Source of the DNA: Candidatus Poribacteria bacterium
GTDB lineage: Bacteria > Poribacteria > WGA-4E > WGA-3G
Assembly (NCBI GenBank): GCA_026710795.1
Contig: JAPOQK010000037.1
Location: forward strand, 37,514-101,513
Reading direction: 5' to 3'
DNA: 64,000 bases
The notes below the pieces were generated by a model. It was not told the DNA's origin. It saw only the letters and a list, made by a program, of their open reading frames with translations, and ran no database searches. Of the stretch, positions 2,696 to 63,262 are shown one piece after another. Every line of letters starts with the position of its first letter. The first letter of the stretch is position 1. The translations under genes were made by a program, and so were the position numbers.

Positions 2696-4102
2696 ATGAA
2701 TACAAAAAGAGGTGATTTAACTCAAGGAGGTCTATTACGCCATCTGTTACAACTTTCAGTGCCGATAACATGCGGCTACATACTCCAAGATGCATTCAAT
2801 ATTGTTGATATGATTTTTGTCGGCAGATTGGGACCTGCAGCAATAGCAGCTGTTGGCATTAGCGGTAATTTGTTGCGGTTAATTGCTGTTTTATCTCTCG
2901 GTATTTCAACAGGTGCGGGGATATTGGTGTCACAATACCTTGGTGCAAGGAATCATGCACAAGCAGGATACGTGGCGATGCAGGCTATACTACTTGCATT
3001 TTTTGCTGCCATAGGAATTGGTATTGTTGGGTATCCATTGGCTGAATTCGGTTTACGTGCCGTCCGAACAACAGACATTGAGGTGATACAACTCGGTACA
3101 ACCTATATGCAGATAATACTAATCGGCATAAGTGCTATGTTTCTATCAATGACACTGGGTTCGATTTTCCGTGCTGGTGGTGATGCTGTTACACCAATGG
3201 TCGTCTTGATATTGTCAACCTTGGTTAACATTGGACTTGACCCTCTACTGATATTTGGTTTGTGGAAATTCCCAAAACTGGGTGTAGCAGGATCGGCTTA
3301 TGCAACACTGATCGGTAGAGGTGTCGGTGTCGTTATCTTGCTTTTTCTCTGTTTTAGTGGTAAAGCTCCTATATCACTTCGTAATGTATTATTGCGCGCT
3401 GATCTTGTAGAAATGCTTGACATTTTAAGGCTGGGAATTTATAGTTCTATGCAGGGTTTCTGGCGACATTTATCTCGACTCGGATTCCTCTGGATTATCG
3501 GTCCTTACGGTAAATTTGCCGTTGCTGCCTATACGATCTGTATGCGTCTTAGAATTCTGGTTATGAACCCAGGTTTTGGGATAGCCAACGCTGTTGCACC
3601 TGTTGTTGGTCAAAATATGGGGGCAAATTTGATAGAACGCGCAGAAAAAACAGCTAAGATTGGAAATATACTGGCAACAACGGTAATGACCGGAATTGGA
3701 ATATTATTCTTAGTTTACCCGCATATGTTCATACGGGTATTTACCGACGACCAAGAAGTTATAAAAATTGGTTCTGTATACATTCAATTCTTGTCTCTCA
3801 CTTTTGGATTTATAGCCTTTTCACTGGTATTAGGTAAAGCACTTAACGGTGCCGGTGATACTTTCTCACCGATGATTATTACACTCGCCGCACAGATTGG
3901 TGTAGGTTTAGGTCTTGTTATTATATTATCGCATTTTATCGGTCTAAATGGTGTTTGGATCGGCATTGCACTTTCAAATGTTGTTCAAGGCATTGCTATG
4001 TGGATATGGTATAGAACAGGCAAATGGAAAACTATTAAACTTATGAGTGGTAGAGAAAATTCTACCAGAAAGGTGGTGAAAAATGGCGTACAAAGGTTAT
4101 GA
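2696..4102 (+). CDS. MATE family efflux transporter
   Basis: The 468 aa polytopic protein has the MATE N-terminal signature (LLRHLLQLSVPITCGYILQDAFNIVDMIFVGRLGPAAIAAVGI) and 12 predicted TM segments. It ends in TGA, overlapping the next gene's ATG. Confidence 0.85.
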   Translation: MNTKRGDLTQGGLLRHLLQLSVPITCGYILQDAFNIVDMIFVGRLGPAAIAAVGISGNLLRLIAVLSLGISTGAGILVSQYLGARNHAQAGYVAMQAILLAFFAAIGIGIVGYPLAEFGLRAVRTTDIEVIQLGTTYMQIILIGISAMFLSMTLGSIFRAGGDAVTPMVVLILSTLVNIGLDPLLIFGLWKFPKLGVAGSAYATLIGRGVGVVILLFLCFSGKAPISLRNVLLRADLVEMLDILRLGIYSSMQGFWRHLSRLGFLWIIGPYGKFAVAAYTICMRLRILVMNPGFGIANAVAPVVGQNMGANLIERAEKTAKIGNILATTVMTGIGILFLVYPHMFIRVFTDDQEVIKIGSVYIQFLSLTFGFIAFSLVLGKALNGAGDTFSPMIITLAAQIGVGLGLVIILSHFIGLNGVWIGIALSNVVQGIAMWIWYRTGKWKTIKLMSGRENSTRKVVKNGVQRL

Positions 4103-4913
4103 AAATCCTCAGTTGGTTATTTCTGCTGAGGAACTGAAAAATAGTCTTGATGATACGTATTGTATCGTTGATACACGTCCGACACATGAATATATCCAAG
4201 GGCATATACCAGGGGCACTTCATCTTGACCTGTTTGGATTGAGTTTGATCAATACACGCAAAGAGACATTAGATACATTTATGTGGATGATTGCCTACCT
4301 ATTCCAACAACGTGGTATTGATCCAGCGAAAACCATAATTTGGTATGATAATATCTCAGGCATATATGCATCTCGTGGTTTTTGGTTTTGCGAGTATTTA
4401 GGACATCAAGAGAATCGTGTTTTAGATGGTGGCTTTAATGCATGGTTAGCAGCAGAAGGTTCGGTCAGTACAGAAGGTGTAGAACCCCCTAAAGTACCGC
4501 AATTTCCCATAGAGACGATCCACGAATTACATATGGATGCGAATCTGATACATTCAAATCTGACTCAAGACGATTTTGTCTCACTTGATACACGTACAGA
4601 TGAAGAACATTATGGACGAGTTGCTCGGGCAAAACGGGCAGGGGCAATACCAGGGTCGGTCCATATTGAGTGGGTCAATAATCTTGATGATTCTGGGGCG
4701 TTCAAACCTGCTGCTGAACTGAGAGAAATGTACGAAGCAGCAGGAATAACGCATGGAAAAAGGGTAATGTGCTACTGACAGGGCGGCTACCGTTCTTCGC
4801 AGACCTATTTAGCATTGCGGCTTATCGGGTATCAGTTAGTAAGCAATTACATTGGGTCTTGGAAAGAATGGGGAGACCAGCTGGATTTGCCGGTCGAAAT
4901 TCCTGAAGAATAG
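4083..4913 (+). CDS. Two-domain rhodanese / thiosulfate-3-mercaptopyruvate sulfurtransferase with in-frame TGA (putative selenocysteine) at the catalytic position
   Basis: The called ORF ends at TGA 4776-4778 (..KRVMCY*). The same frame continues QGGYRSSQTYLALRLIGYQLVSNYIGSWKEWGDQLDLPVEIPEE to TAG at 4911-4913. This is the canonical rhodanese C-terminus: active loop C-x-x-G-x-R, then GY..V..Y.GSW.EW. The TGA aligns with the catalytic Cys (U-Q-G-G-Y-R). Confidence 0.7.
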
Positions 4914-4915
4914 TA

Positions 4916-5650
4916 TTAGATTGTATTAGAGAAATTACTACATAATTCTGCAACTGCTGCTGGACATTCATGCGGTAAATAGTGTCCGGCACTTTGCAGC
5001 CATATAATTTGAATATTTTGGTTTGATGGAATGCGTAACTTAGTTTCAGTAGTCTCATTTCTTCCCATTCCACCGAAAACTTCATAGATGGGAATTGGTG
5101 TCCTTTCAAGGAAGTTATAAGCATCAAATTCTATGACTGTTGACCAAAAACTTCTCCATACGCTCTGCTCAAAACGGTTTCGCGTATCAGATGACTTTTT
5201 TTGTATCTTCTTAATCTCTATTTGTGAAAGTGTACCGTAAAACCTTCCTTCGTCAAAAGCACTACCGGCAGATGATAAACTTGTCCATCCCTCAAGCAAA
5301 ACAAGTCCAGCAATGCTTGAGGAACATCTTGCAGCATCCATTGCAACCATCCCGCCAAGACTGTGTCCAACAAGTATAAACTTATCAATTTCAATATAGT
5401 CTGTTAGTTTTAATACGTCATTAGAAAGATTTGTTAAGGTAAATGGTTCGGTGGGTGTACTACTCTTTCCATGCCCTCTAAAATCCAGTATGATACAACG
5501 ATGACTACTTGGCAATATATCTATCACCGTTTGCCAATCTTCTGAATCACATCCAGTTCCATGTAAGAATAGTAGCGGAATACCAGTTCCACCAGTATCA
5601 GAATAAGCCATTTTACCCCAACATGTCTGGAGATATTTGGTATTAACCAT
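4916..5650 (-). CDS. Alpha/beta-fold hydrolase
   Basis: It carries the HG oxyanion motif (LLFLHGTGCDSEDW) and the GHSLGG nucleophile elbow. The real start may be the internal MAYSD. Confidence 0.75.
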   Translation of the reverse strand: MVNTKYLQTCWGKMAYSDTGGTGIPLLFLHGTGCDSEDWQTVIDILPSSHRCIILDFRGHGKSSTPTEPFTLTNLSNDVLKLTDYIEIDKFILVGHSLGGMVAMDAARCSSSIAGLVLLEGWTSLSSAGSAFDEGRFYGTLSQIEIKKIQKKSSDTRNRFEQSVWRSFWSTVIEFDAYNFLERTPIPIYEVFGGMGRNETTETKLRIPSNQNIQIIWLQSAGHYLPHECPAAVAELCSNFSNTI

Positions 5651-9809: not shown

Positions 9810-10247
9810 ATGCAGTTATCCGCTAAATTGAAATATGCAGTTTGTGCAATGTTGGAACTCGGTTTACAATATCACAAACAATTTGTTTCTGTTACTGTGT
9901 TGTCAGAAAAACGCAGTATTCCTGGACCGTATTTGGAGAAACTTCTATTACAACTCAAACACGCTGGTTTAACTACAAGTCGACGAGGACCTGATGGTGG
10001 ATATAGTCTCGCACTACCTCCAGATCAAATACGGATAGGTGATATATTCGCAGCGGTGGCAGGTCCAGTTAATTTCACAGAAGGTTTTGAATCACAGGAA
10101 TCATCTGAAATAGGTGACTTTTTTGCTGAGATTGAGGAAGAGGTATGTAAAGTTTTGAACACAAAGACATTACATGAACTTTGTTGTCATGCACGGAAAA
10201 TCAATCAATTGTCAGCACCAACACATTCACATCCGTTTTCTATATGA
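9810..10247 (+). CDS. Rrf2-family transcriptional regulator (CymR-like, no Cys-x5-Cys-x5-Cys cluster ligands)
   Basis: It has the N-terminal HTH (MQLSAKLKYAVCAMLELG ... RRGPDGGYSLA). Its stop TGA overlaps the cysteine synthase start (ATGA). Confidence 0.8.
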   Translation: MQLSAKLKYAVCAMLELGLQYHKQFVSVTVLSEKRSIPGPYLEKLLLQLKHAGLTTSRRGPDGGYSLALPPDQIRIGDIFAAVAGPVNFTEGFESQESSEIGDFFAEIEEEVCKVLNTKTLHELCCHARKINQLSAPTHSHPFSI

Positions 10248-11194
10248 AACTCGCTAAAAATCTGACAAAACTCATCGGGAATACTCCGATGGTTCGACTA
10301 AATGCACTGCCGAATAAGGAAGATGCAACAATATATGCAAAGTTGGAATCCTATAATCCAGGTGGTAGCATAAAAGATCGTATCAGTTACGGCATGGTTG
10401 TAGATGCTGAAAAACGCGGCATTCTAAAACCAGGTGATACTATAGTTGAACCAACAGCAGGAAACACAGGTATAGGTCTCTCTATTGTCGGTGTGGCACG
10501 AGGTTATCATGTAATTTTAACCATGCCGGAGTATGTGAGTAGTGAAAAATATGCACTTCTTTCCGCTTTTGGGGCAGATATTGTATTAACACCAGAACAC
10601 GGAGGAATGGCAAGTGCAATTTGGGAAGCAGAGGAAATCATACGACGCAATTCACGACATTATATGCCTAACCAATTTGCGAATCCTGCAAACCCTCAGA
10701 TACATAGACAGACCACTGCAATTGAAATCTTGAAATCCGTAGGAAGTAATATAGATTATCTTGTTATAGGTGTAGGCACAGGTGGCACCTTAACAGGTGT
10801 TGGTGAAGTGATTAAGTCTCACAATCCGAAAACCAAAATTGTGGCTGTTGAACCACTGGTTTCATCGGTGTTATCAGGTGGAATGCCAGGACCAACACGC
10901 ATCGACGGACTCGGTGCAGGTATGGTCCCTGAAGTCTTGAATGTAGATATTATAGATGATGTAATTCCAGTTTCAGAAGAGACGGCTTACGAGATGATGA
11001 AAGAAATATCCAAAAAAGAGGGGTTGTTAGTAGGAATGTCTTCTGGAGCAAATGTGTATGCATCATTACAAGTCGCACAAGGTATTGGTCCAGAAAAGAC
11101 TGTGGTAACAATATTACCGGACACTGGTGAACGTTACTTTAGTTTGAGCAGGTATTTTGAACTTGAGACAGGTATAATGGAAACTATATCATAA
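10244..11194 (+). CDS. Cysteine synthase (CysK/CysM family, PLP-dependent)
   Basis: From the ATG at 10244 it reads MKLAKNLTKLIGNTPMVRLN...SYNPGGSIKDRI...TAGNTGIGL...GVGTGGTLTGVG, the classical OASS motifs. The 6-frame ORF from 10181 is an upstream run-in. Confidence 0.85.
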   Translation: MKLAKNLTKLIGNTPMVRLNALPNKEDATIYAKLESYNPGGSIKDRISYGMVVDAEKRGILKPGDTIVEPTAGNTGIGLSIVGVARGYHVILTMPEYVSSEKYALLSAFGADIVLTPEHGGMASAIWEAEEIIRRNSRHYMPNQFANPANPQIHRQTTAIEILKSVGSNIDYLVIGVGTGGTLTGVGEVIKSHNPKTKIVAVEPLVSSVLSGGMPGPTRIDGLGAGMVPEVLNVDIIDDVIPVSEETAYEMMKEISKKEGLLVGMSSGANVYASLQVAQGIGPEKTVVTILPDTGERYFSLSRYFELETGIMETIS

Positions 11195-11221
11195 AGAGAG
11201 TAACAGTAGGTATTTTTCGGT

Positions 11222-11980
11222 ATGACATGTCAAATTCAGAGTGCTTCAATTATGGAATTGAAGCAGCAGTTAAGTTTAACAGAAAACCCACAGGACGTTC
11301 TTTTTACTCTCTTTAAGAGGTTTAAAGATCGCGCAGCAATTGTTACAAGTGGTCAGTTGACCGGTATGGTCCAGATACATCTCGCAGCAGAAAACAAGGT
11401 GCCATTCAGGGTGTGTACAGTAGACACACTCCGACTATTCCCAGAAACCTATACTTTTTTTGAAAAAGTTGAAGAACGATATGGAATTGAAATTGAACGT
11501 ATTCAACCAGACATGTCTGAAGTTGATAAAATGGTTTCAGAACACGGGGAACACCTGTTTTTTGACAGCAGGACAAAACAAGAATTTTGTTGTGATATAC
11601 GAAAAATAAGACCTATGGAACGACTTTTAGATACATTGGATATTTGGATCACTGGCACGAGAAGAGATCAATCCGAAACCCGACAAAATTTCCAGAAAGT
11701 AGAAACAATTTCATCTAAACCCCATCCGGTACTCAAAGTAAGTCCATTGATATATTGGACAACTGAACAGGTGTGGGAATTTGTCCTTGAAAATGAAGTA
11801 CCTGTCAATCCCCTTTTTCTACCAAATGAAAATGGGCACTACTTCGATTCACTCGGGTGTATGACCTGTACAACACGGATTCGTCCTGGTGAGTCAAAAC
11901 GTGCTGGTCGATGGCGGTGGCAAAATACAACAGATACTGATCAAAACAACAAAGAGTGTGGATTGCACTACGCTATTTGA
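11222..11980 (+). CDS. cysH: Iron-sulfur APS/PAPS reductase (CysH family)
   Basis: It has LFPETYTFFEKVEERYG, then the Cys-Cys pair (EFCCDIRKIRPMER), then CMTC, and ends KECGLH like E. coli CysH. Confidence 0.75.
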   Translation: MTCQIQSASIMELKQQLSLTENPQDVLFTLFKRFKDRAAIVTSGQLTGMVQIHLAAENKVPFRVCTVDTLRLFPETYTFFEKVEERYGIEIERIQPDMSEVDKMVSEHGEHLFFDSRTKQEFCCDIRKIRPMERLLDTLDIWITGTRRDQSETRQNFQKVETISSKPHPVLKVSPLIYWTTEQVWEFVLENEVPVNPLFLPNENGHYFDSLGCMTCTTRIRPGESKRAGRWRWQNTTDTDQNNKECGLHYAI

Positions 11981-12073
11981 TTTCAGAACACATCAGCAGA
12001 TTTACATATCCGCAATTTGGATATTCAAACTATATTATGTTATCATAACACTGTCCTGATAAAGGAGGAAAAT

Positions 12074-12361
12074 ATGGCTGTAACAGTTCGTATACCGACC
12101 CCGTTGAGACGCTTGACACAGAATCTCGCGGAGGTTGAAACTGAAGGCACAGATATTGAAACTATCATTGAAAATCTGGAATCTGACTATCCAGGGATGA
12201 AAGAACGTCTCTGCGATGATGAAGGAAAAATACGACGTTTTGTAAACATTTATCTTAACGACGAAGATATCCGTTTTCTTGATGGAAAAGAAACAGCAGT
12301 TACAGATGGTGCTGAAATATCTATAATTCCTGCCATTGCAGGTGGTTTACCCCTTTCCTAA
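12074..12361 (+). CDS. MoaD/ThiS/CysO-like ubiquitin-fold sulfur-carrier protein with a 4-residue tail after the Gly-Gly
   Basis: From the start MAVTVRIPTPLRR (AAAGGAGG RBS 8 nt upstream) it reads ...GAEISIIPAIAGG-LPLS*. The beta-grasp carrier ends in GG followed by LPLS. Confidence 0.65.
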   Translation: MAVTVRIPTPLRRLTQNLAEVETEGTDIETIIENLESDYPGMKERLCDDEGKIRRFVNIYLNDEDIRFLDGKETAVTDGAEISIIPAIAGGLPLS

Positions 12362-12374
12362 TATCAATGTCTTA

Positions 12375-12407
12375 GCATACAGGCAGATACTATATCCGCC
12401 TGTATGC
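12375..12407 (+). promoter_or_regulatory. Perfect 10 bp stem hairpin (GCATACAGGC-N13-GCCTGTATGC) occluding the JAMM gene start codon
   Basis: The 3' arm at 12398-12407 contains the ATG at 12404-12406 of the downstream JAMM ORF. No U-tract follows. Confidence 0.35.
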
Positions 12408-12907
12408 GATACACACCGATAGTCACTCACGATTTAATGTTAACGCTACTACCGAAAACTTTGAATGAGATCTGTGAACATGCCAAGGCAGAATTTCCCG
12501 AAGAATGCTGCGGTGTAATATTATATGCCGAACAGAAGGAATTTGTCAGACCTTGTCGTAATATCCAAAATGAGATGCATAATGCTGAGCCAGAAACATA
12601 TCCACGGGATGCCCGAACAGCCTACTTAATGCATCCCGATGACCTGATTGCAATACACAAAGAGGCAGAAACACAACATCGTCCAATTAAAGCATTTTAT
12701 CATTCTCATCCAAACCATGAAGTGTATTTTTCAGAAAAAGATAAATCAGATGCAATGATATGGGGTGAACCCGCATATCCAGGGGTTGCATACCTCGTTA
12801 TCTCAATAATTGACAATACAATTAGAATAATCAAAGCTTTTGCATGGGACGAAACAAATTCAGATTTTATTGAAGTACCAATACAGACACACCATCAGGA
12901 GCAATAA
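12404..12907 (+). CDS. JAMM/MPN+ metalloprotease (Mec+-like)
   Basis: It has E..CG (EECCGVIL) and the JAMM motif HSHPNHEVYFSEKD (H-S-H-x7-S-x2-D). Confidence 0.8.
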   Translation: MRYTPIVTHDLMLTLLPKTLNEICEHAKAEFPEECCGVILYAEQKEFVRPCRNIQNEMHNAEPETYPRDARTAYLMHPDDLIAIHKEAETQHRPIKAFYHSHPNHEVYFSEKDKSDAMIWGEPAYPGVAYLVISIIDNTIRIIKAFAWDETNSDFIEVPIQTHHQEQ

Positions 12908-13199: not shown

Positions 13200-15539
13200 T
13201 TGATGCGAATCCTGCAAACAGGACTATTCCGTACTCTCCAAAGATTTCTACCAGACTTTAATATCAGTTTCAGTGTTCACCTCCGTCCATACATACGCAT
13301 TATTACAATCTCCGCATTTTCACTCGCAATAGGATTAGGAGTCACACTACGGAATTATCTTGTATTTGAATTCCATGACACATCGGGAGTTGTTGGTTGG
13401 ATAAGTGTTAATCAATATCCAAAACAACAGGAATTTTTCTACTACATTCTTGCGCTGGTTGGAATTCCAATCCTCATTTGGATTTACTGGTTCATCTGGT
13501 TAACTTATTCAAATTGGGCTGCAAAGGCAACGAATCAACCGATCCACCGTGTCCTAAAATATAATGCACTCGCTTCAATTCCGTTGTGGTTATGTTGGTT
13601 GCAGGTTTATTACTATGATCAGGCTGGAATTACCGGCTTAGTCCTTCCTATCGGGTTAACTCTATCTCTTGAATTCGTCTTACTGTTGCATTGGCACTAC
13701 TCTCAACGATTCCAGCCGAAAACTGTAAAACGCGATACAGTCAATGTAGAACCCGTGACACTTCAAAGTGGGATAATACCTCAAAAACCAAAAGGAGTTA
13801 GGATATTATTCTGTGTGTGTCAATACGTCCTGATACCGATTATTATATACCTACTCGTATATAATGGAAATATTGATCGCGGTATTGATATGTTCCATGA
13901 AGGTGAACGTCTCGCTCCACTAAATGAGATGTTACATGGTGGTGTAGTATTCCGTGATGTTTATGTGCAACATGGAATGTTTCAAAATGCTTATTTGGCA
14001 TGGTTCGGTAATAAGATATTTGAACCTACTTTAGCGGGTGTACGCTCTATGGAGCGTGTCTTGTCACCACTTGGCTATATTGCCATATATCTTCTTGGCT
14101 TACAAGTATTTCGTGGACGATTCCTAACAGCATTTGTATGTTTCCTGATAGTATCTGGAAGTAACTTTTCAGTTTCTCCAAGACATTCTCTCGGCTTACT
14201 TAGTTTTGTTTTCATCGCAAATTATCTAACTTACAACCGAGAGAAAGGATTATTCATTCCTTGGCAACGCAATCTATCTGAAAAACCTACTTGGATCATG
14301 CATCTTGTTAGGTTCGGCTGGAAACTTATTTTGGCTGGATTCTTCACAAGTTTAGCATTTTGGTATAGTACAGAAGTTGGTTTGTATACGCTCGGTGCAA
14401 TAGGTCTATTTCTGACGATATATAGTCTACAACGTAGGATACAACTTCACCTACGACCATTACCGCTAATAGCGTATTGTAGTGGAATTCTATTAGGATT
14501 TCTTCCAGTTGCAATCTATTTCTTAACACACGGTGCATTGGACGATATGATATGGAACTCCTACATACAGTGTAAATACCAGATTGCGACGTGGGGACTA
14601 AAATTTCCATCACTGTCAAGTACAATTGCGATCATATCAGAGAATGGGTGGAGAGATTTTTTACTCAGTACAGGATTTCGATGGTATCTTCCAATATTTG
14701 TATACATGTGTACTGCAGCATATCTAACATACCTGCGGTTATGTAGGAGTAGTGTTTCCGCAGATGATGCGTTGAAACTACTGCTGTTGTTTCTCGGTGG
14801 TATTGCCTATTTCCGTACTGCCCTCGGCAGATCAGACGGAGGTCATTTACATTTCGGTTCAACCTTTTTATGGCTTATCTGTTTGTTCCCAATAGACAGA
14901 GGTATATCGGGTATTCTTAACCTATTCAGGATAGGTGAGATAGGGGAAGGTATACGTAATCGTTTTTCTATACTAAAAGACAAGGCACGATGGCGGAGTG
15001 CTATGAAAGCTGCATGGATACTAATTCCAATTGCTGTATGTGTCTGGTATGTTGGTGAAATTCATCACCCATTGGAAGGTTTACGTAACAAATGGAAACA
15101 GATGCGTGCAAACCAGTTTAAACCACGTAATGCCTCTGTGGAATTGGAACGTGCTGGAAAGGTTGATATACCTGATGGTCAGGTTGAGCAGATTCAGAAG
15201 GTTGTGGCTTTTATTCAGGAAAATACTGATACAGAGGAAAAGATATTCGACTTTACAAGTCAGGGAGCATATTACTTCTTTGCTAATCGACCAAGTGTTA
15301 CCCGTTTTCACATGGTATCGTATGCATCAACTCCAGGAATGCAGCATGAGGTTATCGCTGACCTCAAAAAGGATCAAACACGATTAGTGATCTTTAAAAC
15401 TGGGGGTTGGTTTGATAGGGTTGACGGTATTCCTGTTGAGGAGCGGCATCCACTTATAGCGAAATACTTAAAGGAAAACTACGAACTTGCTATTGATATT
15501 AACAATACAGAGATTTTGTTCCGAAAAAATTTGCGTTGA
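13200..15539 (+). CDS. Large polytopic membrane protein with a C-terminal soluble domain (GT-C-like architecture, unknown function)
   Basis: The 779 aa protein has more than 12 hydrophobic helices across the first roughly 550 aa, then a roughly 200 aa hydrophilic C-terminus. I recognise no diagnostic motif. Confidence 0.5.
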   Translation: MMRILQTGLFRTLQRFLPDFNISFSVHLRPYIRIITISAFSLAIGLGVTLRNYLVFEFHDTSGVVGWISVNQYPKQQEFFYYILALVGIPILIWIYWFIWLTYSNWAAKATNQPIHRVLKYNALASIPLWLCWLQVYYYDQAGITGLVLPIGLTLSLEFVLLLHWHYSQRFQPKTVKRDTVNVEPVTLQSGIIPQKPKGVRILFCVCQYVLIPIIIYLLVYNGNIDRGIDMFHEGERLAPLNEMLHGGVVFRDVYVQHGMFQNAYLAWFGNKIFEPTLAGVRSMERVLSPLGYIAIYLLGLQVFRGRFLTAFVCFLIVSGSNFSVSPRHSLGLLSFVFIANYLTYNREKGLFIPWQRNLSEKPTWIMHLVRFGWKLILAGFFTSLAFWYSTEVGLYTLGAIGLFLTIYSLQRRIQLHLRPLPLIAYCSGILLGFLPVAIYFLTHGALDDMIWNSYIQCKYQIATWGLKFPSLSSTIAIISENGWRDFLLSTGFRWYLPIFVYMCTAAYLTYLRLCRSSVSADDALKLLLLFLGGIAYFRTALGRSDGGHLHFGSTFLWLICLFPIDRGISGILNLFRIGEIGEGIRNRFSILKDKARWRSAMKAAWILIPIAVCVWYVGEIHHPLEGLRNKWKQMRANQFKPRNASVELERAGKVDIPDGQVEQIQKVVAFIQENTDTEEKIFDFTSQGAYYFFANRPSVTRFHMVSYASTPGMQHEVIADLKKDQTRLVIFKTGGWFDRVDGIPVEERHPLIAKYLKENYELAIDINNTEILFRKNLR

Positions 15540-18796: not shown

Positions 18797-20101
18797 CTAA
18801 CGTCTTGGTCTAAATGAAGGAATGCCTGTTTTATCAAACCGTTCTTTTACTGCTTTCATTAGTTCAGGTGTTATTTCCCGATATCCGTGTTCGCGTGCAT
18901 ATTTTTCAACGCTTTTAACAACCATTCCGCGTGCAAATGAGGGGACTCGTTTTAACCTTTGTTCCGCAGCATCATTCCAATGCAAATCGTAATCAGGTTC
19001 TGTACCGAAAGCAGTTCGTTTTTCGAGCTGAACAGGTTTCTGTCCTTGTTGTCCCGGTTGGTATTCACACGATTCATCTGCTGCGAGATAGTTACCATTC
19101 GTTGCATAAGCACGTGCTCTACATCCACCACAAACTTCTCTGAATTCACATGCACCACATTTTCCCTGAAGCATATCTCGATTGCGTAAGTTATGAAATG
19201 TTTCCGACTCATTCCACAGTTTGACAAAGCTCTCATCTTTGAGATTTCCGACACTGACAGGTAAATATGGACATGGTGTTAGTTCACCTTCAGGACTGAT
19301 GCGGCAATAGTAGATACCACATGGACAAGTTCCGCTTGGATAACCTTGAAGGAAAGCAGAGTCCGATTGTTGTTCATAGATAACGCGTTTGTAGTGTGGT
19401 GCACATTTTGCTGCGATGAGCATCTTACCACTATATTCTGCTTGCAGTTTAAACATTGTCTCAAGCATCTCTTCATATTGTGCAGGTGTAATGTCCATTA
19501 CCGTTTTACCTCTACCGGTCCGCACCAGAAAATAGAGGTTTAGCACTTTCGCACCCAACTGATAAGCGTATTCTACTATCTCGGGGATTTCGTCGTAATT
19601 CCATTGCGTAACTGATGTTTGAACGAGGAAGTCAAGTTGTGCACGTTTCAGTGCATCAATACCACCCATTGTTGCTTTCCAAGCACCCTCCATTCCACGA
19701 AACTTGTCGTGATTTGTAGGTTGAATTGAATCAAGACTTATCCCCGCACCCGTAACTCCATGTTTTTGCATCTTCTCAACCACTTCGTCGTTTAGTAGCA
19801 CTCCATTTGTTCCCATCACGACAAGAAAACCTGTATCTGAAGCATATTTTGAAATCTCCAGAATATCAGGTCTTAACAGGGGTTCACCACCGGTGAGAAT
19901 AAGAAGGATATGTGGATTGATTTCGGCTATTTCATCAATTACACGGAAGCATTCAGATTGTGTCAACTCTGTATCTCTATGGAAACCTTGTGGAAATTCA
20001 TTGGTATCCACAAAACCAGCAGGAAGATAGCAGTGTGTGCATTTCAAATTGCACAATCTGGTGATATTCCATGAGACTGCTTGAACTTTTGTTTTTTCCA
20101 T
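18797..20101 (-). CDS. Radical SAM enzyme with SPASM domain and C-terminal PCP_red-like module
   Basis: It has CNLKCTHC (CxxxCxxC), LTGGEPLLRPD, and the SPASM Cys cluster (CAPHY...GTCPCG..YCRI...CPY...GKCGACEFREVCGGCRARAY). The C-terminus is WNDAAEQRLKRVPSFARGMVVKSVEKYAREHGYREIT. Confidence 0.8.
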   Translation of the reverse strand: MEKTKVQAVSWNITRLCNLKCTHCYLPAGFVDTNEFPQGFHRDTELTQSECFRVIDEIAEINPHILLILTGGEPLLRPDILEISKYASDTGFLVVMGTNGVLLNDEVVEKMQKHGVTGAGISLDSIQPTNHDKFRGMEGAWKATMGGIDALKRAQLDFLVQTSVTQWNYDEIPEIVEYAYQLGAKVLNLYFLVRTGRGKTVMDITPAQYEEMLETMFKLQAEYSGKMLIAAKCAPHYKRVIYEQQSDSAFLQGYPSGTCPCGIYYCRISPEGELTPCPYLPVSVGNLKDESFVKLWNESETFHNLRNRDMLQGKCGACEFREVCGGCRARAYATNGNYLAADESCEYQPGQQGQKPVQLEKRTAFGTEPDYDLHWNDAAEQRLKRVPSFARGMVVKSVEKYAREHGYREITPELMKAVKERFDKTGIPSFRPRR

Positions 20102-21224: not shown

Positions 21225-21761
21225 TTAAAACTGTGTTGGGAAGTTTCCACGTGCTGCGTCCATTATTTCACCAGTTATTTCGGTATGTCCGTTATCTTTT
21301 GCAAAACTTTCAATCCCCATCTTTGCCATTGGACGCACAAAACTTGGTATACGTTCTAATCGTTCCAGTGCTTCGGGTGTCCATTTTAAACCTGACTGTT
21401 CAGGTTCAGACGTAGGCTCAAAATTTTCATCAAATGCATCGGAGATTACAGAGGTGAAAGGACATTTCCCACCCTCACCGGTTTCGCTATTTGCATTTTC
21501 CGATGATATGTTTGTGAATGAATCTTTCTTCGCGGTTTCTAATTGTGAACGTACCATCTGCATCGGTTGAGCTGCTTCGCTCTTTCCTCCGAGTTGAAGG
21601 TCCAGGGATTTCAGCATCTGCGTTTCCGATGGATTGAGGTACATGGCGATTTCTGTAAAACAGTCGGGACACTCAAAAACTGCCGTGACGGAACCTTGTT
21701 CAGGACGAGTTACGTCCTTAAATTTCATTGCTGTGTCGCAGTCTATACATAAGAATTTCAT
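21225..21761 (-). CDS. Zn-ribbon protein with C-terminal PCP_red-like module
   Basis: The N-terminus has CIDC...CPDC. The C-terminus is WTPEALERLERIPSFVRPMAKMGIESFAKDNGHTEITGEIM. Confidence 0.5.
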   Translation of the reverse strand: MKFLCIDCDTAMKFKDVTRPEQGSVTAVFECPDCFTEIAMYLNPSETQMLKSLDLQLGGKSEAAQPMQMVRSQLETAKKDSFTNISSENANSETGEGGKCPFTSVISDAFDENFEPTSEPEQSGLKWTPEALERLERIPSFVRPMAKMGIESFAKDNGHTEITGEIMDAARGNFPTQF

Positions 21762-24489: not shown

Positions 24490-26424
24490 TTATGTTTCAC
24501 TATCTCCATTGTTCGATTGTTGGTAATACTCGCCTAACACCTCGTTTGCCAGACTTCTTCCGTTTTCAATAACCCGTGCAGCAAAATCAAGTGTAACCTC
24601 TGTGATATTTGCTTCTTGTGCACGTTGTTCAATGCGAGTTTGCGTTATTTTTCTCATAAAACCTTCAGGTACTAAGTTTAAGCGTTCCACTGCATCCTCA
24701 GTCCATTGAAAAATACTTTCAATGTCTACATTAGCAGAAGCATTTTGTGAGTCGGTCTGTGATTGCATAGCTCTGAGTTCTGGTGCATCTTCTCGGACAG
24801 CAGCTGCTTCTCCCATGCTGTCGTCAATAATCTCTGTTGCAAATGCATTCGTAATAGTGCCAATTTTCTGAGAACGTGCAGATTTTTCTATCCGTGCTTT
24901 AACGTTTCGTCGCATATAACCGCGAGGTACCGTACGAAGTGCTTTTTTGGCTTGATCTGACCATTGTAGACGGATCCCATCAAATGTCTCCTCCTCAGCA
25001 GTGCCACCTTCGTCAATAGCGATGTGTTCAAGTGAGTTTTTGTCAACCATTTGGAAACGTTCTGGTGGAGAACTACATACGGGACATTGGACGGGTTGTT
25101 GGTTATGTGCGGCATAACCACATTCGCCACAGATGTATGTTTGGACTGCATCCGCTTCTAAAACTTTTTGTTCAGCGATTTCCTTTGCAACGCGTGTCAG
25201 TTTTTCTGATGCGCGCTGTGGCATAATTGCTTCCATTGCTTTATCAATAACACTTTCAGTGATAACGGAATGACCTCGCTCAATAGCAAAACGGTGTACA
25301 GCTGTCTTTGCAATACCGCGAACCAGTGGCGGTGCTTTTTCCATACGATCCATAGCCTCTTGCGTCCAAACAAGTGTTTCTTCGGCTTTTACATCAATTT
25401 GTGGGAAATAGCGTTGGCTTGATAGAAGCACATTACACGGGGCGAGTCTTAGTAGATTTTCTGCAGTGCTGCCAATATCTGTATCTTGTTCACTATGAAC
25501 TCCGATTCTACCTAAAACAAGAAGCCAAGGTTCAGTTTTTCGTGTGTATTGTATAATTTTTTCGTAGGCTTTTCCGTCAAGAAGAGTGATTTTCAGTTGG
25601 TAGTTGTGTTCTTCTTTTGCGATTGAACGTGCAACCTCAAGGTGTGACTGATATATCTTGGCAAGTCCTGTATCTATTACTTCTTCATGCAGTTGTTCTT
25701 GTTCTTTAAATTTGAATGTTCTTGCGGCACGTTCGGTTAGTACGTTGACAACGGAATTAAACACGATGTAGTGCAGATATGGATCATATACACCCACTGC
25801 TTCCACTTGTCTGTTGAACTTCTGCCCAAGACTTATTGCAGTCTTCAACCCAGAAAAAGATTCTGGACTTCCATCAATTCCGACGAGAATATTCCCTTTT
25901 TGTTCCTCCATTGGTTCAAGGTTTCTCACGATCAGCGTATCTGTTGTAATCCGTCGCACGACGCGTTCACAGACTCCACCGATTAGACTATCCTTGACAG
26001 CCCCCATACCGAGTGCACCCATTATTACCAGATCGTAATCGCTTTCTTGTATGTCCTCAACCAATTTGATGTAGTGCTTCCCTTCTGGCATCTTTGGTTC
26101 AAATGGAATATCAAATTTTTCGCATTTATGCTTCATCACCTCAAGATAAGAATCCGATATGAGTTGGAGTCCCATAGTGATAAGCGTATCATGAATGCGA
26201 CGTTGTTTTTCCAGTTCCACTTCGTCTTGATATTCTTCCGGTAAAGTATACTCCATCTGTTTGAAGCGCACATCATGCATTTTTGCTGCGTAGACGTGTG
26301 ACCCGACCAAATGTGCATCGAATTTCTTCGCGAATTCCACTGCTAAGTCTATGCTGGCATCGGAATAGTCTGAATTGTCAACGGGAACATATATTTTATT
26401 CATAATCTTTTCCACACTTTTCAA
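24490..26424 (-). CDS. Multidomain protein with two UspA domains, three PCP_red-like modules and a Zn-ribbon
   Basis: Tandem Usp domains span the first roughly 300 aa. Three repeats follow: WTQEAMDRMEKAPPLVRGIAKTAVHRFA..., WSDQAKKALRTVPRGYMRRNVKARIEKSA... and WTEDAVERLNLVPEGFMRKITQTRIEQRA.... A CGECG...CPVC ribbon is also present. Confidence 0.65.
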   Translation of the reverse strand: MKSVEKIMNKIYVPVDNSDYSDASIDLAVEFAKKFDAHLVGSHVYAAKMHDVRFKQMEYTLPEEYQDEVELEKQRRIHDTLITMGLQLISDSYLEVMKHKCEKFDIPFEPKMPEGKHYIKLVEDIQESDYDLVIMGALGMGAVKDSLIGGVCERVVRRITTDTLIVRNLEPMEEQKGNILVGIDGSPESFSGLKTAISLGQKFNRQVEAVGVYDPYLHYIVFNSVVNVLTERAARTFKFKEQEQLHEEVIDTGLAKIYQSHLEVARSIAKEEHNYQLKITLLDGKAYEKIIQYTRKTEPWLLVLGRIGVHSEQDTDIGSTAENLLRLAPCNVLLSSQRYFPQIDVKAEETLVWTQEAMDRMEKAPPLVRGIAKTAVHRFAIERGHSVITESVIDKAMEAIMPQRASEKLTRVAKEIAEQKVLEADAVQTYICGECGYAAHNQQPVQCPVCSSPPERFQMVDKNSLEHIAIDEGGTAEEETFDGIRLQWSDQAKKALRTVPRGYMRRNVKARIEKSARSQKIGTITNAFATEIIDDSMGEAAAVREDAPELRAMQSQTDSQNASANVDIESIFQWTEDAVERLNLVPEGFMRKITQTRIEQRAQEANITEVTLDFAARVIENGRSLANEVLGEYYQQSNNGDSET

Positions 26425-27739: not shown

Positions 27740-28411
27740 CTACAGTAAATAGATAAAGGTGAAAACCATAATCCAAATTAGGTCAACGAAATGCCAATAA
27801 AGTCCTACTATTTCAACCTCATGGTTGAACTCAGCAGTATATCTTCCACGTAACCCATGTATCAGAATTACAATAAGATAAATCACACCACCAGTTACAT
27901 GTAACCCGTGGAAACCTGTGATTGTATAGAATGCGGGACCGAAAAGATTTGAACCAGAGATAGCACCACCTTTTAGTCCGTGCTCAGGAATTTCAGTGAG
28001 TGTTAACCCGTGTTTTATCAGAGCATTCCATTCATACGCCTGTAACCCCAGAAATATGATACCCCCTAAGATAGTTAAACCAAGGAAAGTACACATCCGA
28101 GATACGTTGCCTTTCTGAATTGATTCCAACGCTTTTACCATGGTAACGCTACTGCATATTAACAGAAAAGTCATGCCTGCAGTCAGATTAATCCCGAGGA
28201 TCTCACTTGGTGGAACCCATCCAATTACACCGGCACCAGCTCGGAGTGCGGCATAGACTGCAAGTAGTGCGCCGAATGACATGGTATCACCTATAAGGAA
28301 AATCCACATGCCGAGTTTGCCGAGACTATCAGGTGTTAACGATGGTTCGTATACGTCTTCAGTATGTTCTAAAGTGGTAGCTTGTTCCACTATATTTAAC
28401 TCCTTTTCCAA
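27740..28411 (-). CDS. Heme-copper oxidase subunit III
   Basis: It has the five-helix CoxC pattern (...GFHGLHVTGGVIYLIVILIHGL..). Confidence 0.8.
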   Translation of the reverse strand: MEKELNIVEQATTLEHTEDVYEPSLTPDSLGKLGMWIFLIGDTMSFGALLAVYAALRAGAGVIGWVPPSEILGINLTAGMTFLLICSSVTMVKALESIQKGNVSRMCTFLGLTILGGIIFLGLQAYEWNALIKHGLTLTEIPEHGLKGGAISGSNLFGPAFYTITGFHGLHVTGGVIYLIVILIHGLRGRYTAEFNHEVEIVGLYWHFVDLIWIMVFTFIYLL

Positions 28412-28508
28412 TAATTATATGCTTTGGTAGACATTGTTTGAAACAGCTGCTACAAACGTTAGTCCCCTTATTTAAGATGCATTATATTTCACAAATAGGC
28501 ATATTAAA

Positions 28509-29378
28509 TTAATGTGTGCCAACTTTAACGCGAGCATCTGCCATTGATGCGATCTCACTGTCAATCTCAAATCCGATAAAGTCACGTCCTTCTTTACGAG
28601 CTGCTATACCTGTAGAACCTGAACCAGCAAATGGATCACAGACAACTGAACCTTCTACAGAAAAAATCCTGATTAAATGTCGCAATAAAGGAACAGGTTT
28701 TGCAGCTATGTGTCCGAATTTCTTACGAGGTTTAGGTACTGGAATTACTGTTCCAGGAAAACGTCCTTTTTCAACGACAGGCTCGGATGTGTCTATGAGT
28801 CCAGTCTGATATTGAAGCCAGTTGTCCACGAATGTTCCTTCTCGTGGGGACTGTGCTAAAATAATTATCTCCATCTGTGGCTTGAGTTGTGGTGTTTTTC
28901 TTCCTCCCAAAACCTTTATAATTCTATCCTTTTCTTCAGCTGGTAAATCCCGTTTCCGTACGAAGTGGTCTTGTTTAAATGCTTTTGCTTGACCTTCATA
29001 TCGCCATGCTAACATATCCCTAATTTCAAACCCCGCATCTTCAATGGCGATAGCTGCGCGATGTGAAAGTCTTGGGTGTGAAAAACAGAGTACAAATCCA
29101 CCGGGTTTGACTATGCGAAACCACTGTTCCGCGACCGGTTTCAGGAATCGATATAAATTATAACCTTGTGCTCTGTCAAACTTCATTCCAACAGGAAGTC
29201 CACCAATAACTCCTTTTTTCTGCCTTGACCTTATCCTCTGTGTATCCCAACTGTCATCCATTCCATCCAAGAAATAGGGTGGATCAGTTAGAATAAGAGA
29301 CACACTTTGTGAAGTGACCTTGGACATACCCTTTCGGCAATCAATACATTGTACCCAAGAATCACCACTATTTTCCAT
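28509..29378 (-). CDS. Beta-class DNA (N6-adenine or N4-cytosine) methyltransferase, orphan, embedded in the oxidase operon
   Basis: It has the DPPY motif (LILTDPPYFLDG) followed by the C-terminal FxGxG motif (DPFAGSGSTG). No endonuclease gene is adjacent. Confidence 0.75.
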   Translation of the reverse strand: MENSGDSWVQCIDCRKGMSKVTSQSVSLILTDPPYFLDGMDDSWDTQRIRSRQKKGVIGGLPVGMKFDRAQGYNLYRFLKPVAEQWFRIVKPGGFVLCFSHPRLSHRAAIAIEDAGFEIRDMLAWRYEGQAKAFKQDHFVRKRDLPAEEKDRIIKVLGGRKTPQLKPQMEIIILAQSPREGTFVDNWLQYQTGLIDTSEPVVEKGRFPGTVIPVPKPRKKFGHIAAKPVPLLRHLIRIFSVEGSVVCDPFAGSGSTGIAARKEGRDFIGFEIDSEIASMADARVKVGTH

Positions 29379-29419
29379 TGTTACACCGTCTATAGTGCCT
29401 TATATGAAAGGCATATATC

Positions 29420-29659
29420 TTATGTCTTTAATTTATTATGTGCGCGTCGATAATAATAGAAAACACTTCCCCCAATAATACCAAACACCGTAAACGGCAT
29501 TGACATCATAAAAAGCACACTCCAGTTAAAACCTCTTGCAATCGGTTCGTTAAGGTTTTTACACGCAGGACATGCTTCAAGTGTATGTGGAAGAATTGAA
29601 ATTACAAATCCTATTATCAGAATCCATAAGATAATATGTCGTATCATGCATAACTCCAT
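29420..29659 (-). CDS. Small CxxC membrane protein, translationally coupled (TAATG) to subunit III-2
   Basis: From the MELCMIRHIILW start it has two helices and LEACPACKNL. The longer track ORF from 29728 overlaps the upstream gene by 70 nt. Confidence 0.4.
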   Translation of the reverse strand: MELCMIRHIILWILIIGFVISILPHTLEACPACKNLNEPIARGFNWSVLFMMSMPFTVFGIIGGSVFYYYRRAHNKLKT

Positions 29660-63125: not shown

Positions 63126-63262
63126 ATTGTTGAAACCCTCCAGAAAAAACGAAAATATCCTATTGTAATCTCCGACGCAATTGATTAATTGGTATATTTT
63201 TAGGTAATTATACAACATTTTTGCCATAGAATACAAGTAAAATGTATTATAAGGAAACTGAC

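What the first reader, a model, noticed from the sequence alone, without database searches (positions are those of the whole stretch)
4770..4913. In-frame TGA exactly at the rhodanese catalytic cysteine: candidate selenocysteine sulfurtransferase
The rhodanese ORF stops at TGA 4776-4778. The next 44 in-frame codons encode the rest of a textbook rhodanese active-site loop and C-terminus: U-QGGYRSSQTYLALRLIGY..V.NY.GSW.EW. The TGA falls on the catalytic Cys of the C-x-x-G-x-R loop. That position is where Sec replaces Cys in known selenoenzymes. Other genes here terminate with TGA (MATE at 4100-4102, Rrf2 at 10245-10247), so a code-25-like recoding is unlikely. A second such case in this window (61698) strengthens the inference that this organism uses Sec. 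I could not identify a convincing SECIS hairpin downstream by eye.
Basis: partly seen in the sequence, partly recalled or inferred. Interest (0 to 1): 0.8.

Follow-up and report, generated by a model that had tools for sequence, protein, structure and literature searches.

The report
Selenocysteine rhodanese in a Poribacteria genome
The "stop" codon inside this sulfur-transfer enzyme gene almost certainly encodes selenocysteine at the catalytic site; this kind of selenoprotein has been predicted before, but public databases list this sponge-symbiont version as a truncated protein, and its RNA recoding signal looks unusual.

Summary
ORF 4083-4778 ends at TGA 4776-4778, and 44 more in-frame codons complete a two-domain rhodanese. 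The TGA aligns with catalytic Cys230 of A. vinelandii RhdA.

The same codon is TGA in 56 species-level genomes: 47 Ca. Poribacteria, 6 Latescibacterota, 2 Gemmatimonadota and 1 unclassified. It is TGC/TGT in 23 more distant homologues. Downstream codons are under strong purifying selection (dN/dS 0.05). TGA is otherwise an ordinary stop in the window. Published COG tables list SelA, SelB and SelD in Poribacteria. A second gene in the window (61698, HMA domain) has a conserved UGA followed by a canonical SECIS hairpin.

No canonical bacterial SECIS follows the rhodanese UGA. Sec-type genes instead share an ~82-nt extended stem-loop starting 11 nt after the UGA (4790-4871). Its basal helix is supported by about five independent compensatory changes at synonymous sites and is degraded in Cys-type homologues.

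"Sulfurtransferase COG2897" has been a predicted selenoprotein family since 2005, so this is a new member of a known kind. Not shown here: tRNA-Sec and the sel genes in this genome, selenium incorporation, and SelB binding to the RNA element.

The parts
4083..4913 (+). Complete Sec-type rhodanese (thiosulfate sulfurtransferase-like) gene: 276 codons with UGA at codon 232, ending at TAG 4911-4913
   Evidence: sequence and translation; PF00581, two stretches; end-to-end alignment to RhdA 1E0C and other tandem rhodaneses; orthologues.
4776..4778 (+). In-frame UGA at the catalytic-Cys position; proposed selenocysteine codon
   Evidence: Aligned to Cys230 of RhdA. The codon is TGA in 56 genome loci and TGC/TGT in 23. 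Sec-type sequences form essentially one clade.
4776..4796 (+). Active-site loop codons U-Q-G-G-Y-R-S (C-x-x-G-x-R type, six-residue rhodanese loop)
   Evidence: alignment (CQTHHRS in RhdA). The loop is invariant (QGGYRS) in all Sec-type orthologues.
4779..4910 (+). 44 codons downstream of the UGA, encoding the rest of the catalytic domain
   Evidence: dN/dS 0.054 for the first 34 of these codons (+1..+102, window 4779-4880) across 55 orthologous loci plus the window, versus 0.09-0.10 upstream. Near-identical peptide in Cys-type homologues.
4790..4871 (+). Extended stem-loop (+12 to +93 after the UGA); candidate non-canonical SECIS or recoding element
   Evidence: Mean base-pair probabilities. 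MFE -24.2 kcal/mol, z -3.2 in the window; z -6.6 in orthologue L010. The same architecture appears in independently folded lineages.
4790..4801 (+). Helix A, 5' arm (codons Y-R-S-S-Q: C CGU UCU UCG CA)
   Evidence: Pairs with 4860-4871. 98% of cells paired in 56 sequences. Predicted de novo by RNAalifold.
4860..4871 (+). Helix A, 3' arm (codons W-K-E-W: UGG AAA GAA UGG)
   Evidence: Pair 4793/4868 (+15/+90; third positions of Arg CGY and Glu GAR) is C-G in 40, U-A in 15, U-G in 1 and never unpaired. It has the highest mutual information of any pair not in the same codon. About 5 independent switches. The same pair is unpaired in 10 of 23 Cys-type sequences.
4814..4818 (+). Helix C, 5' arm (+36..+40)
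   Evidence: Pairs with 4843-4847. 5 bp in Poribacteria; 7 bp in Latescibacterota/Gemmatimonadota, where pair +42/+63 occurs as C-G, G-C and G-U. In the window the +36/+69 pair is A-U instead of G-C.
4843..4847 (+). Helix C, 3' arm (+65..+69)
4780..4796 (+). Local hairpin H1 (+2..+18, 7 bp, 3-nt loop); competes with helix A and is probably a by-product of the Q-G-G-Y-R-S-S codons
   Evidence: 96% paired but with no compensatory change. It starts 1 nt after the UGA, so it cannot satisfy the bSECIS spacing. It is outcompeted by helix A once the full 3' sequence is included.
2696..4102 (+). MATE efflux transporter gene whose last 20 nt overlap the rhodanese start; probable operon partner
   Evidence: Pfam MatE. 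MATE lies immediately upstream of the rhodanese in 35 Poribacteria loci.

Best explanation
The gene 4083-4913 encodes a full-length two-domain rhodanese (thiosulfate-sulfurtransferase type) from a Candidatus Poribacteria bacterium. The catalytic cysteine is replaced by selenocysteine, inserted at UGA 4776-4778 by the bacterial SelB/tRNA-Sec pathway. Shown: the UGA and the downstream reading frame are conserved and under purifying selection across three phyla. Also shown: Cys-type homologues exist, and the UGA occupies the catalytic position. Inferred: the residue inserted is Sec. Inferred: it acts as the nucleophile that accepts sulfane sulfur (an enzyme-Se-S- intermediate in place of the persulfide) and passes it to an acceptor. 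Inferred: when selenium or SelB is limiting, translation stops at the UGA and yields an inactive 231-aa fragment lacking the active-site loop. The recoding signal is probably the ~82-nt extended stem-loop at 4790-4871. Its base lies 11 nt after the UGA, about where mRNA leaves the ribosome when the UGA is in the A site. Its basal helix is proven by covariation and is specific to Sec-type genes. That it binds SelB or stimulates recoding is inference. The physiological acceptor is unknown. Conserved neighbours (MATE transporter; MoeA; a CysO/CysM/Mec+-type cluster 5 kb away) hint weakly at sulfur delivery to ThiS/MoaD-like carriers.
For: (1) The TGA aligns with the catalytic Cys230 of RhdA.
(2) About 100 closest database homologues (62-100% identity) are all called as 231-244 aa, ending at ...MCY. 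Full-length Cys forms appear at about 55% identity.
(3) In genome DNA the codon is TGA in 56 species-level loci (47 Poribacteria, 6 Latescibacterota, 2 Gemmatimonadota, 1 unclassified) and TGC/TGT in 23. Sec-type sequences form one clade, with Cys-type L056 nested inside it and L058 adjacent.
(4) dN/dS downstream of the UGA is 0.054, versus 0.09-0.10 upstream.
(5) TGA is a normal stop for 11 other genes, and only two read-through candidates exist in 64 kb.
(6) The other candidate (HMA domain, GMT-U-GVC) has its UGA conserved in 10 metagenome orthologues and TGT in 2. It has a 7-bp hairpin with a GGN loop 23 nt after the UGA that fits the published bSECIS model; the loop is AAC in the Cys forms.
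(7) Sec-type-specific RNA structure: helix A is 98% paired. Pair +15/+90 is C-G 40, U-A 15, U-G 1 and never unpaired, with about 5 independent switches and top mutual information. Helix A is 10.8/11 paired in Sec-type against 7.7/11 in Cys-type. MFE is -34.7 against -28.3 kcal/mol despite lower GC.
(8) Literature: Poribacteria bins and a single-cell genome carry SelA, SelB and SelD COGs (PMC5649159 Table S4 and Table 2). Poribacteria are listed among phyla with Sec-type hydrogenases (PMC13582414). COG2897 sulfurtransferase is a listed predicted selenoprotein family with a UxxG motif (PMC1088965; PMC1976440; PMC13188914).
Against: No tRNA-Sec, selA, selB or selD lies in the window or in any fetched locus. 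The rest of this genome could not be searched.

No hairpin meeting the published bSECIS constraints is positionally conserved after the UGA. Those constraints are a 3-9 nt loop with G in its first two positions, 16-37 nt spacing and a stem of at least 4 bp. The best position occurs in only 9 of 56 sequences and none occurs in the window. Rfam gives no SECIS hit.

The apical loop of the conserved structure lies about 50 nt from the UGA, outside the consensus range, so SelB docking is unexplained. Only helix A, and more weakly helix C, has covariation support. The interior and apex vary.

No protein-level or selenium-labelling evidence exists for any member of this family.
Confidence: 0.88

Rival explanations
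1. The UGA is recoded, but to cysteine rather than selenocysteine. This would use a SelB-dependent non-canonical tRNA (selC*/tRNA-ReC), so the enzyme would be an ordinary Cys rhodanese made by an unusual route.
For: Such tRNAs exist and decode SECIS-associated UGA as Cys (summarised in PMC13582414). Nothing in my data distinguishes Sec from Cys at the protein level.
Against: There is no obvious selective reason to keep UGA plus a costly RNA structure across 56 species just to insert Cys, when TGC does this in the sister lineages. In that paper tRNA-ReC was enriched in genomes with the UXXU motif and was found in about 2% of other Sec-type genomes. Poribacteria carry SelA and SelD, which are needed only for Sec.
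Confidence: 0.05
2. The gene really ends at TGA 4776-4778, and the product is a 231-aa truncated rhodanese-like protein. The downstream 132 nt would be a decaying remnant or untranslated region (a pseudogene or domain-loss reading, as in all current database annotations).
For: Every public gene call stops there. No canonical SECIS is found.
Against: The 34 downstream codons analysed have dN/dS 0.054 at dS of about 1.0, and all 44 are free of frameshifts and stops in 56 genomes from three phyla. The truncated product lacks the whole active-site loop. The stop of the extended ORF lies 2 nt from the convergent neighbouring gene.
Confidence: 0.02
3. Sequencing or assembly error, or strain-specific nonsense mutation, in this window (true codon TGC/TGT).
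For: A single-base change separates TGA from TGC/TGT.
Against: The identical TGA occurs in 56 independently assembled genomes, many of them long-read complete chromosomes, and in dozens of metagenome protein clusters.
Confidence: 0.005
4. The UGA is read through without SelB, by near-cognate or suppressor tRNA. The large downstream stem-loop would act only as a generic read-through stimulator, like viral read-through structures.
For: The structure begins about 11 nt after the stop, a typical position for read-through or frameshift stimulators. The stop context is UGA-C in every Sec-type sequence. No canonical SelB-binding loop is found.
Against: Near-cognate read-through would put Trp, Arg or Cys at the catalytic position at low yield. 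The position is exactly the kind where Sec/Cys pairs occur. The same genome has a second UGA gene with a canonical SECIS, indicating an active SelB system.
Confidence: 0.03

Closest known systems
[quoted passage not shown] 2005 Sargasso Sea, PMC1088965; Zhang & Gladyshev 2007, PMC1976440; 2026 review PMC13188914)
   Same: A two-domain thiosulfate/3-mercaptopyruvate-sulfurtransferase-type protein with a UGA and a UxxG motif (here U-Q-G-G). It comes from marine or symbiont-associated bacteria and has Cys homologues. It was predicted by the same Sec/Cys-pair logic.
   Different: I could not retrieve the published representatives (e.g. MCY3690685.1), so direct sequence identity with them is untested. 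The published lists do not mention Poribacteria, the breadth of conservation found here, or the RNA structure.
Azotobacter vinelandii RhdA (PDB 1E0C) and other Cys-type tandem-domain rhodaneses (T. thermophilus 1UAR, M. tuberculosis SseA/CysA, bovine rhodanese)
   Same: End-to-end alignment (E 2.4e-36). An inactive N-terminal domain with Asp where the catalytic residue would be. A C-terminal domain with a six-residue loop after the catalytic residue (CQTHHRS versus UQGGYRS).
   Different: The catalytic residue is encoded by UGA. The loop sequence QGGYR is distinct. The residues after the loop are Ser-Ser in all Sec forms and mostly Ala-Ala in the Cys forms of this subfamily.
Canonical bacterial SECIS (E. 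coli fdhF type; consensus model of Zhang & Gladyshev as given in PMC13188914 Fig. 2 legend)
   Same: An RNA stem-loop in the coding sequence immediately 3' of the UGA. It is specific to Sec-type genes. The paired region begins 11 nt after the UGA. From my own knowledge, not checked here, this is the spacing of the minimal SelB-binding hairpin in E. coli.
   Different: The element is about 82 nt long and its apical loop is about 50 nt from the UGA (consensus 16-37 nt). No conserved G-first small loop lies at the consensus distance. The HMA gene in the same window does fit the consensus.
Single-domain rhodanese selenoproteins (COG0607 forms 1-3; TsoB) listed in PMC9312934 and PMC13188914
   Same: Rhodanese fold with Sec at or near the active-site loop.
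   Different: These are different architectures (single domain, or a DsbD fusion) with different motifs (UxxS, CxU, UxxxxU). NCBIfam NF041203 'rhodanese-related (seleno)protein' scores only 29 bits against a cut-off of 115.

Membership tests
Tandem-domain rhodanese / thiosulfate sulfurtransferase (PF00581 x2; COG2897-type) | Two rhodanese homology domains in one chain | tested here: met
   Pfam PF00581, two stretches, E 2e-34. Alignment over residues 11-273 to RhdA and 5-275 to T. thermophilus rhodanese.
Tandem-domain rhodanese / thiosulfate sulfurtransferase (PF00581 x2; COG2897-type) | Catalytic Cys as first residue of a six-residue active-site loop in the C-terminal domain | tested here: met
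   The position is occupied by UGA. The loop U-QGGYR-S aligns with C230-QTHHR-S of RhdA. Cys is present in 23 homologues.
Tandem-domain rhodanese / thiosulfate sulfurtransferase (PF00581 x2; COG2897-type) | N-terminal domain catalytically inactive (no Cys at the equivalent position) | tested here: met
   WYD-NISGIY-ASR aligns with VYD-DEGGGW-AGR of RhdA; Asp occupies the equivalent position.
Tandem-domain rhodanese / thiosulfate sulfurtransferase (PF00581 x2; COG2897-type) | Sulfane-sulfur transfer activity | not testable with these tools
   Requires an enzyme assay of the Sec-containing protein.
Bacterial selenoprotein gene | In-frame UGA conserved among orthologues, with Cys at the same column in homologues | tested here: met
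   56 loci have TGA and 23 have TGC/TGT. Sec forms are one clade.
Bacterial selenoprotein gene | Coding potential and purifying selection continue past the UGA | tested here: met
   dN/dS 0.054 downstream. The peptide is conserved with Cys forms.
Bacterial selenoprotein gene | [quoted passage not shown] | tested here: not met
   A simplified scan of 56 sequences found its best position in only 9 of 56 and nothing in the window. The candidate hairpins tested as H2, H3 and H4 lack support. Rfam gives no hit. The review itself notes that some selenoprotein genes fail this model.
Bacterial selenoprotein gene | Some conserved, Sec-type-specific RNA structure 3' of the UGA | tested here: met
   Helix A (+12..+23 with +82..+93) has compensatory changes and is degraded in Cys forms.
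Bacterial selenoprotein gene | Genome encodes tRNA-Sec, SelA, SelB and SelD | not testable with these tools
Published COG tables show SelA, SelB and SelD in Poribacteria bin70, bin44 and WGA-3G. tRNA-Sec is not documented.
Bacterial selenoprotein gene | Selenium incorporated at the UGA position | not testable with these tools
   Needs 75Se labelling or mass spectrometry.
Published 'Sulfurtransferase COG2897' selenoprotein family (form 4, UxxG) | COG2897-type architecture with a UxxG motif at the Sec site | tested here: met
   U-Q-G-G. JGI names orthologues 'thiosulfate/3-mercaptopyruvate sulfurtransferase'. The motif and family are as listed.
Published 'Sulfurtransferase COG2897' selenoprotein family (form 4, UxxG) | Sequence similarity to the published representative (MCY3690685.1) | not tested
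   The accession could not be fetched. A Poribacteria orthologue has a numerically nearby accession, MCY3742294.1, which is only suggestive.

The most novel reading that the evidence does not exclude
The ~82-nt extended stem-loop at +12..+93 is a distinct class of bacterial SECIS. SelB, or an accessory factor, would be recruited by a long rod-like structure whose base sits at the ribosomal mRNA entrance, rather than by a small G-first apical loop 16-37 nt from the UGA. If so, consensus-based SECIS finders systematically miss this class, and the same SelB must read two very different elements in one genome (this one and the canonical HMA hairpin).
Probability: 0.35. Interest if true: 0.55.

Novelty: new member of a known kind. 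Interest (0 to 1): 0.4.

Why it matters
First, annotation. About 100 protein clusters in public databases, including all NCBI entries seen here, list this conserved Poribacteria enzyme as a 231-244-aa fragment without its active site. No NCBIfam model flags it as a selenoprotein.

Second, biology. It adds a core, vertically inherited selenoenzyme (plus a second Sec gene 57 kb away) to a major sponge-symbiont phylum. This implies a selenium requirement. It also offers a natural Sec/Cys pair, with revertants, for asking what selenium buys a sulfurtransferase.

Third, method. The recoding signal does not fit the bacterial SECIS consensus yet has clean covariation. It is a concrete test case for the 'distinct classes of bSECIS' that reviews mention without characterising.

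Tried and rejected
- Rfam at gathering threshold over the whole window, and at E<=10 over 4700-4920, gave no SECIS or other relevant family.
- ARAGORN found no tRNA in the window and no tRNA-Sec in the 116 fetched loci.
- Local hairpin H1 (+2..+18) is highly paired but has no compensatory change. It is too close to the UGA and competes with helix A, so I rejected it as the SECIS.
- Hairpins tested as H2 (+21..+34), H3 (loop GUUGCG at +36) and H4 (+43..+61 taken alone) have 77-87% pairing and no covariation above the shuffle controls. They are not supported as independent elements.
- A simplified bSECIS-consensus scan found nothing positionally conserved.
- The window-specific long-range pairing of the UGA region with 4833-4846 seen in the first fold is not conserved in orthologues.
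I relied on sequence alignment to solved structures instead.
- The supplement of the hydrogenase paper, which would list sel genes for a Poribacteria genome, is not held.
- A literature search for the E. coli 11-nt spacing rule found no relevant paper. That statement rests on my own knowledge.
- Pfam scans of 54 window ORFs found no selA, selB, selD or other selenium-metabolism gene.

Full report
**1. The observation**

The ORF starting at ATG 4083 stops at TGA 4776-4778. The same frame continues for 44 codons to TAG 4911-4913. Read through, the 276-aa product has two Pfam Rhodanese stretches (E 2e-34). It aligns over its whole length with solved tandem-domain rhodaneses. The best match is A. 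vinelandii RhdA 1E0C (E 2.4e-36), where ...Y-[TGA]-QGGYRS lies opposite ...H-C-QTHHRS, the catalytic Cys and its six-residue loop. The N-terminal domain has Asp at the equivalent position, as in RhdA.
- The MATE and Rrf2 genes end in TGA.
- Of 57 long ORFs, 37 end in TAA, 13 in TGA and 7 in TAG.
- A six-frame scan finds only two credible TGA read-through candidates, 4776 and 61698.

**2. Conservation**

The roughly 100 closest proteins in the 5.8-billion-protein collection are 62-100% identical and, where named, come from Candidatus Poribacteria. All are called as 231-244 aa and end at ...MCY. Full-length homologues of about 275 aa with C-QGGYRS appear at about 55% identity.

I fetched the DNA of 80 species-representative genomes. 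The codon is TGA in 56 loci: 47 Poribacteria, 6 Latescibacterota, 2 Gemmatimonadota and 1 unclassified. It is TGC/TGT in 23, mostly Vicinamibacterales and other Acidobacteriota plus Binatia, with one Poribacteria and one Latescibacterota. One locus (L079) could not be parsed.

In every TGA locus the downstream frame is open and reads QGGYRSS..YLALRL.GY...NY.GSWKEWGDRLD. Pairwise Nei-Gojobori estimates give dN/dS 0.054 for the 34 codons after the UGA (dS 1.02), against 0.09-0.10 upstream (dS 1.5-1.7). The tail is therefore translated. Its synonymous sites are also somewhat constrained.

On a protein tree the TGA forms make one clade. Cys-type L056 is nested inside it and L058 sits next to it, so the pattern is one gain with later reversions.

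These data exclude pseudogene, sequencing error and general TGA reassignment.

**3. Does the lineage use Sec?**

The window holds no tRNA and no sel gene. I could not scan the rest of the genome. Three indirect lines support Sec use.
- The second candidate is a PSCyt1-WD40 protein whose C-terminal HMA domain reads GMT-[TGA]-GVC. Its TGA is conserved in 10 metagenome orthologues down to 54% identity, and two others have TGT. At +17..+33 after the UGA it has a 7-bp hairpin with a GGN triloop. This fits the published bacterial SECIS model of loop size, G-first loop and 16-37 nt spacing (PMC13188914). In the two Cys forms the stem persists but the loop is AAC.
- Table S4 of Slaby et al. 2017 lists SelA, SelB and SelD COGs in Poribacteria bin70 (40.3% GC, like this window's 40.2%), in bin44 and in the single-cell genome WGA-3G.
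- Poribacteria are named among phyla with Sec-type group 4 hydrogenases (PMC13582414).

**4. The RNA signal**

No Rfam family matches. The short-range hairpins I could draw either lie too close to the UGA (H1, +2..+18) or show no support beyond what the codons impose. A simplified consensus scan finds no positionally conserved canonical SECIS.

When the whole 3' part of the ORF is folded, all lineages give one long imperfect hairpin from +12 to +93. Its basal helix A pairs CCGCUCUUCCCA (codons Y-R-S-S-Q) with UGGAAAGAGUGG (codons W-K-E-W). The evidence for helix A is as follows.
- 98% of cells are paired across 56 sequences.
- RNAalifold predicts it de novo.
- Pair +15/+90 joins the third position of Arg CGY to the third position of Glu GAR, 75 nt away. 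It is C-G in 40 sequences, U-A in 15, U-G in 1 and never unpaired.
- This pair has the highest mutual information of any column pair not in the same codon (0.74). The next best partner of either column scores 0.32-0.35, which argues against a simple GC3 drift effect.
- On a tree built only from the upstream 660 nt, the two sites changed about 5-6 times each, in step.
- Pair +18/+87 also switches, U-A to C-G.

In Cys-type homologues helix A drops to 7.7 of 11 pairs, and +15/+90 is unpaired in 10 of 23. The +12..+93 segment also folds less stably in Cys forms (-28.3 versus -34.7 kcal/mol) despite 64% versus 51% GC. The invariant Ser-Ser after the loop in Sec forms (mostly Ala-Ala in Cys forms) supplies part of helix A. 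The Cys-type L054 keeps Ser-Ser and 11 of 11 pairs. Because L054 roots on the Cys-type side of the tree, this could be a Sec-to-Cys reversion remnant or a pre-adapted Cys form.

Helix C (+36..+40 with +65..+69) is conserved. It lengthens to 7 bp in Latescibacterota and Gemmatimonadota, where pair +42/+63 occurs as C-G, G-C and G-U. The apex is variable.

In the window the element is 4790-4871 (MFE -24.2 kcal/mol, z -3.2). In orthologue L010 z is -6.6.

I conclude that a real, Sec-type-specific RNA structure exists. That it is the SECIS is inference. Its apical loop is about 50 nt from the UGA, outside the 16-37 nt consensus. How SelB would dock is open.

**5. Mechanism**

By homology to rhodaneses, the catalytic residue attacks the sulfane sulfur of a donor such as thiosulfate, carries it covalently and hands it to an acceptor. 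The loop has the cationic Arg typical of thiosulfate-type enzymes rather than the CG[ST]GVT of mercaptopyruvate sulfurtransferases. With Sec the carrier would be a selenosulfide. This is inference from established rhodanese chemistry. Without Sec insertion the product lacks the loop and the last 44 residues, so it should be inactive.

Context:
- The gene start overlaps the stop of a MATE transporter gene by 20 nt. MATE lies immediately upstream in 35 Poribacteria loci.
- MoeA lies downstream in 33 loci.
- An Rrf2 - CysM/K-like - PAPS-reductase-like - ThiS/CysO-like - JAB/Mec+ cluster lies at 9810-12907.

A role in loading ThiS/MoaD-type sulfur carriers is possible but untested.

**6. Comparison with what is known**

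'Rhodanese-related sulfurtransferase, COG2897' was reported as a new selenoprotein family in the Sargasso Sea data in 2005 (3 genes; PMC1088965). It was found again in Olavius symbionts (PMC1976440). The 2026 review lists it as rhodanese form 4 with motif UxxG (PMC13188914), which matches U-Q-G-G here. So the kind is known, though only as a prediction.

What I did not find in those sources:
- The Poribacteria-wide distribution.
- The uniform mis-annotation: all NCBI entries are truncated and unflagged, and no NCBIfam model scores above its cut-off.
- The covariation-supported non-consensus RNA element.

**7. Verdict**

Confidence is about 0.9 that the UGA is translated and about 0.88 that it is read as Sec. 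Novelty is a new member of a known kind. Interest is moderate (0.4), carried mainly by the atypical recoding structure and the annotation consequences.

Noticed in passing
window 61527-63236 (minus strand); UGA at 61698-61700; hairpin 61665-61681: Second Sec candidate: a PSCyt1 - WD40 beta-propeller protein with a C-terminal HMA domain reading GMT-U-GVC (UxxC). The TGA is conserved in 10 metagenome orthologues (54-88% identity) and is TGT in 2. A 7-bp hairpin with a GGN triloop 23 nt after the UGA fits the bacterial SECIS consensus; the loop is AAC in the Cys forms. HMA-type selenoproteins are known (NF041115; P-type ATPase UxxC), but the reviews I read do not list this fusion architecture.
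   Followed up: partly
window 9810-12907 (+): A cluster of Rrf2 regulator, CysM/CysK-like PALP enzyme, PAPS-reductase-like protein, ThiS/CysO-like sulfur carrier and JAB/Mec+ protease. It resembles the thiocarboxylate-dependent cysteine synthesis pathway of M. tuberculosis, which needs a rhodanese-type sulfur donor. It lies 5 kb from the Sec-rhodanese, and no MoeZ/MoeB-like activating enzyme was seen in the window.
   Followed up: partly
L054:3685-3789, L056:3682-3786, L058:3691-3795: Three Cys-type homologues lie at or inside the Sec clade. L054 (TGC) keeps the Ser-Ser codons and all 11 helix-A pairs. L056 (a Poribacteria, TGC) is nested within the Sec clade. These look like Sec-to-Cys reversions that retain SECIS remnants.
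   Followed up: partly
P0001-P0120; NCBI accessions: Every database entry for the Sec-type orthologues is a 231-244-aa fragment named 'sulfurtransferase', 'rhodanese-like domain-containing protein' or 'hypothetical protein'. Some have an N-terminal extension of 12 residues from an upstream start. None is flagged as a selenoprotein.
   Followed up: yes
window 27740-30252 (minus strand): Inside the cytochrome c oxidase cluster, two COX3-like ORFs (27740-28411 and 29659-30252) are separated by an N6/N4 DNA methylase gene (28509-29378). A second methylase of the same family lies at 59199-59969.
   Followed up: no
window 18797-20101, 21225-21761, 24490-26424 (minus strand): Three nearby genes carry the small PCP_red (protochlorophyllide reductase 57-kD subunit) domain. 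It is fused once to radical SAM/SPASM, appears once alone, and appears three times with two Usp domains. A NUBPL/ParA-type Fe-S P-loop NTPase lies next to them. This is an unusual repeated domain combination of unknown role.
   Followed up: no
window 13200-15539 (+): A 779-aa ORF directly after the ThiS/JAB genes has no Pfam match at E<=1e-5.
   Followed up: no
window 4911-4918: The extended rhodanese ORF ends at TAG 4911-4913, and the convergent alpha/beta-hydrolase gene ends at 4916. The two stop codons are only 2 nt apart, with no room for a terminator between them.
   Followed up: no
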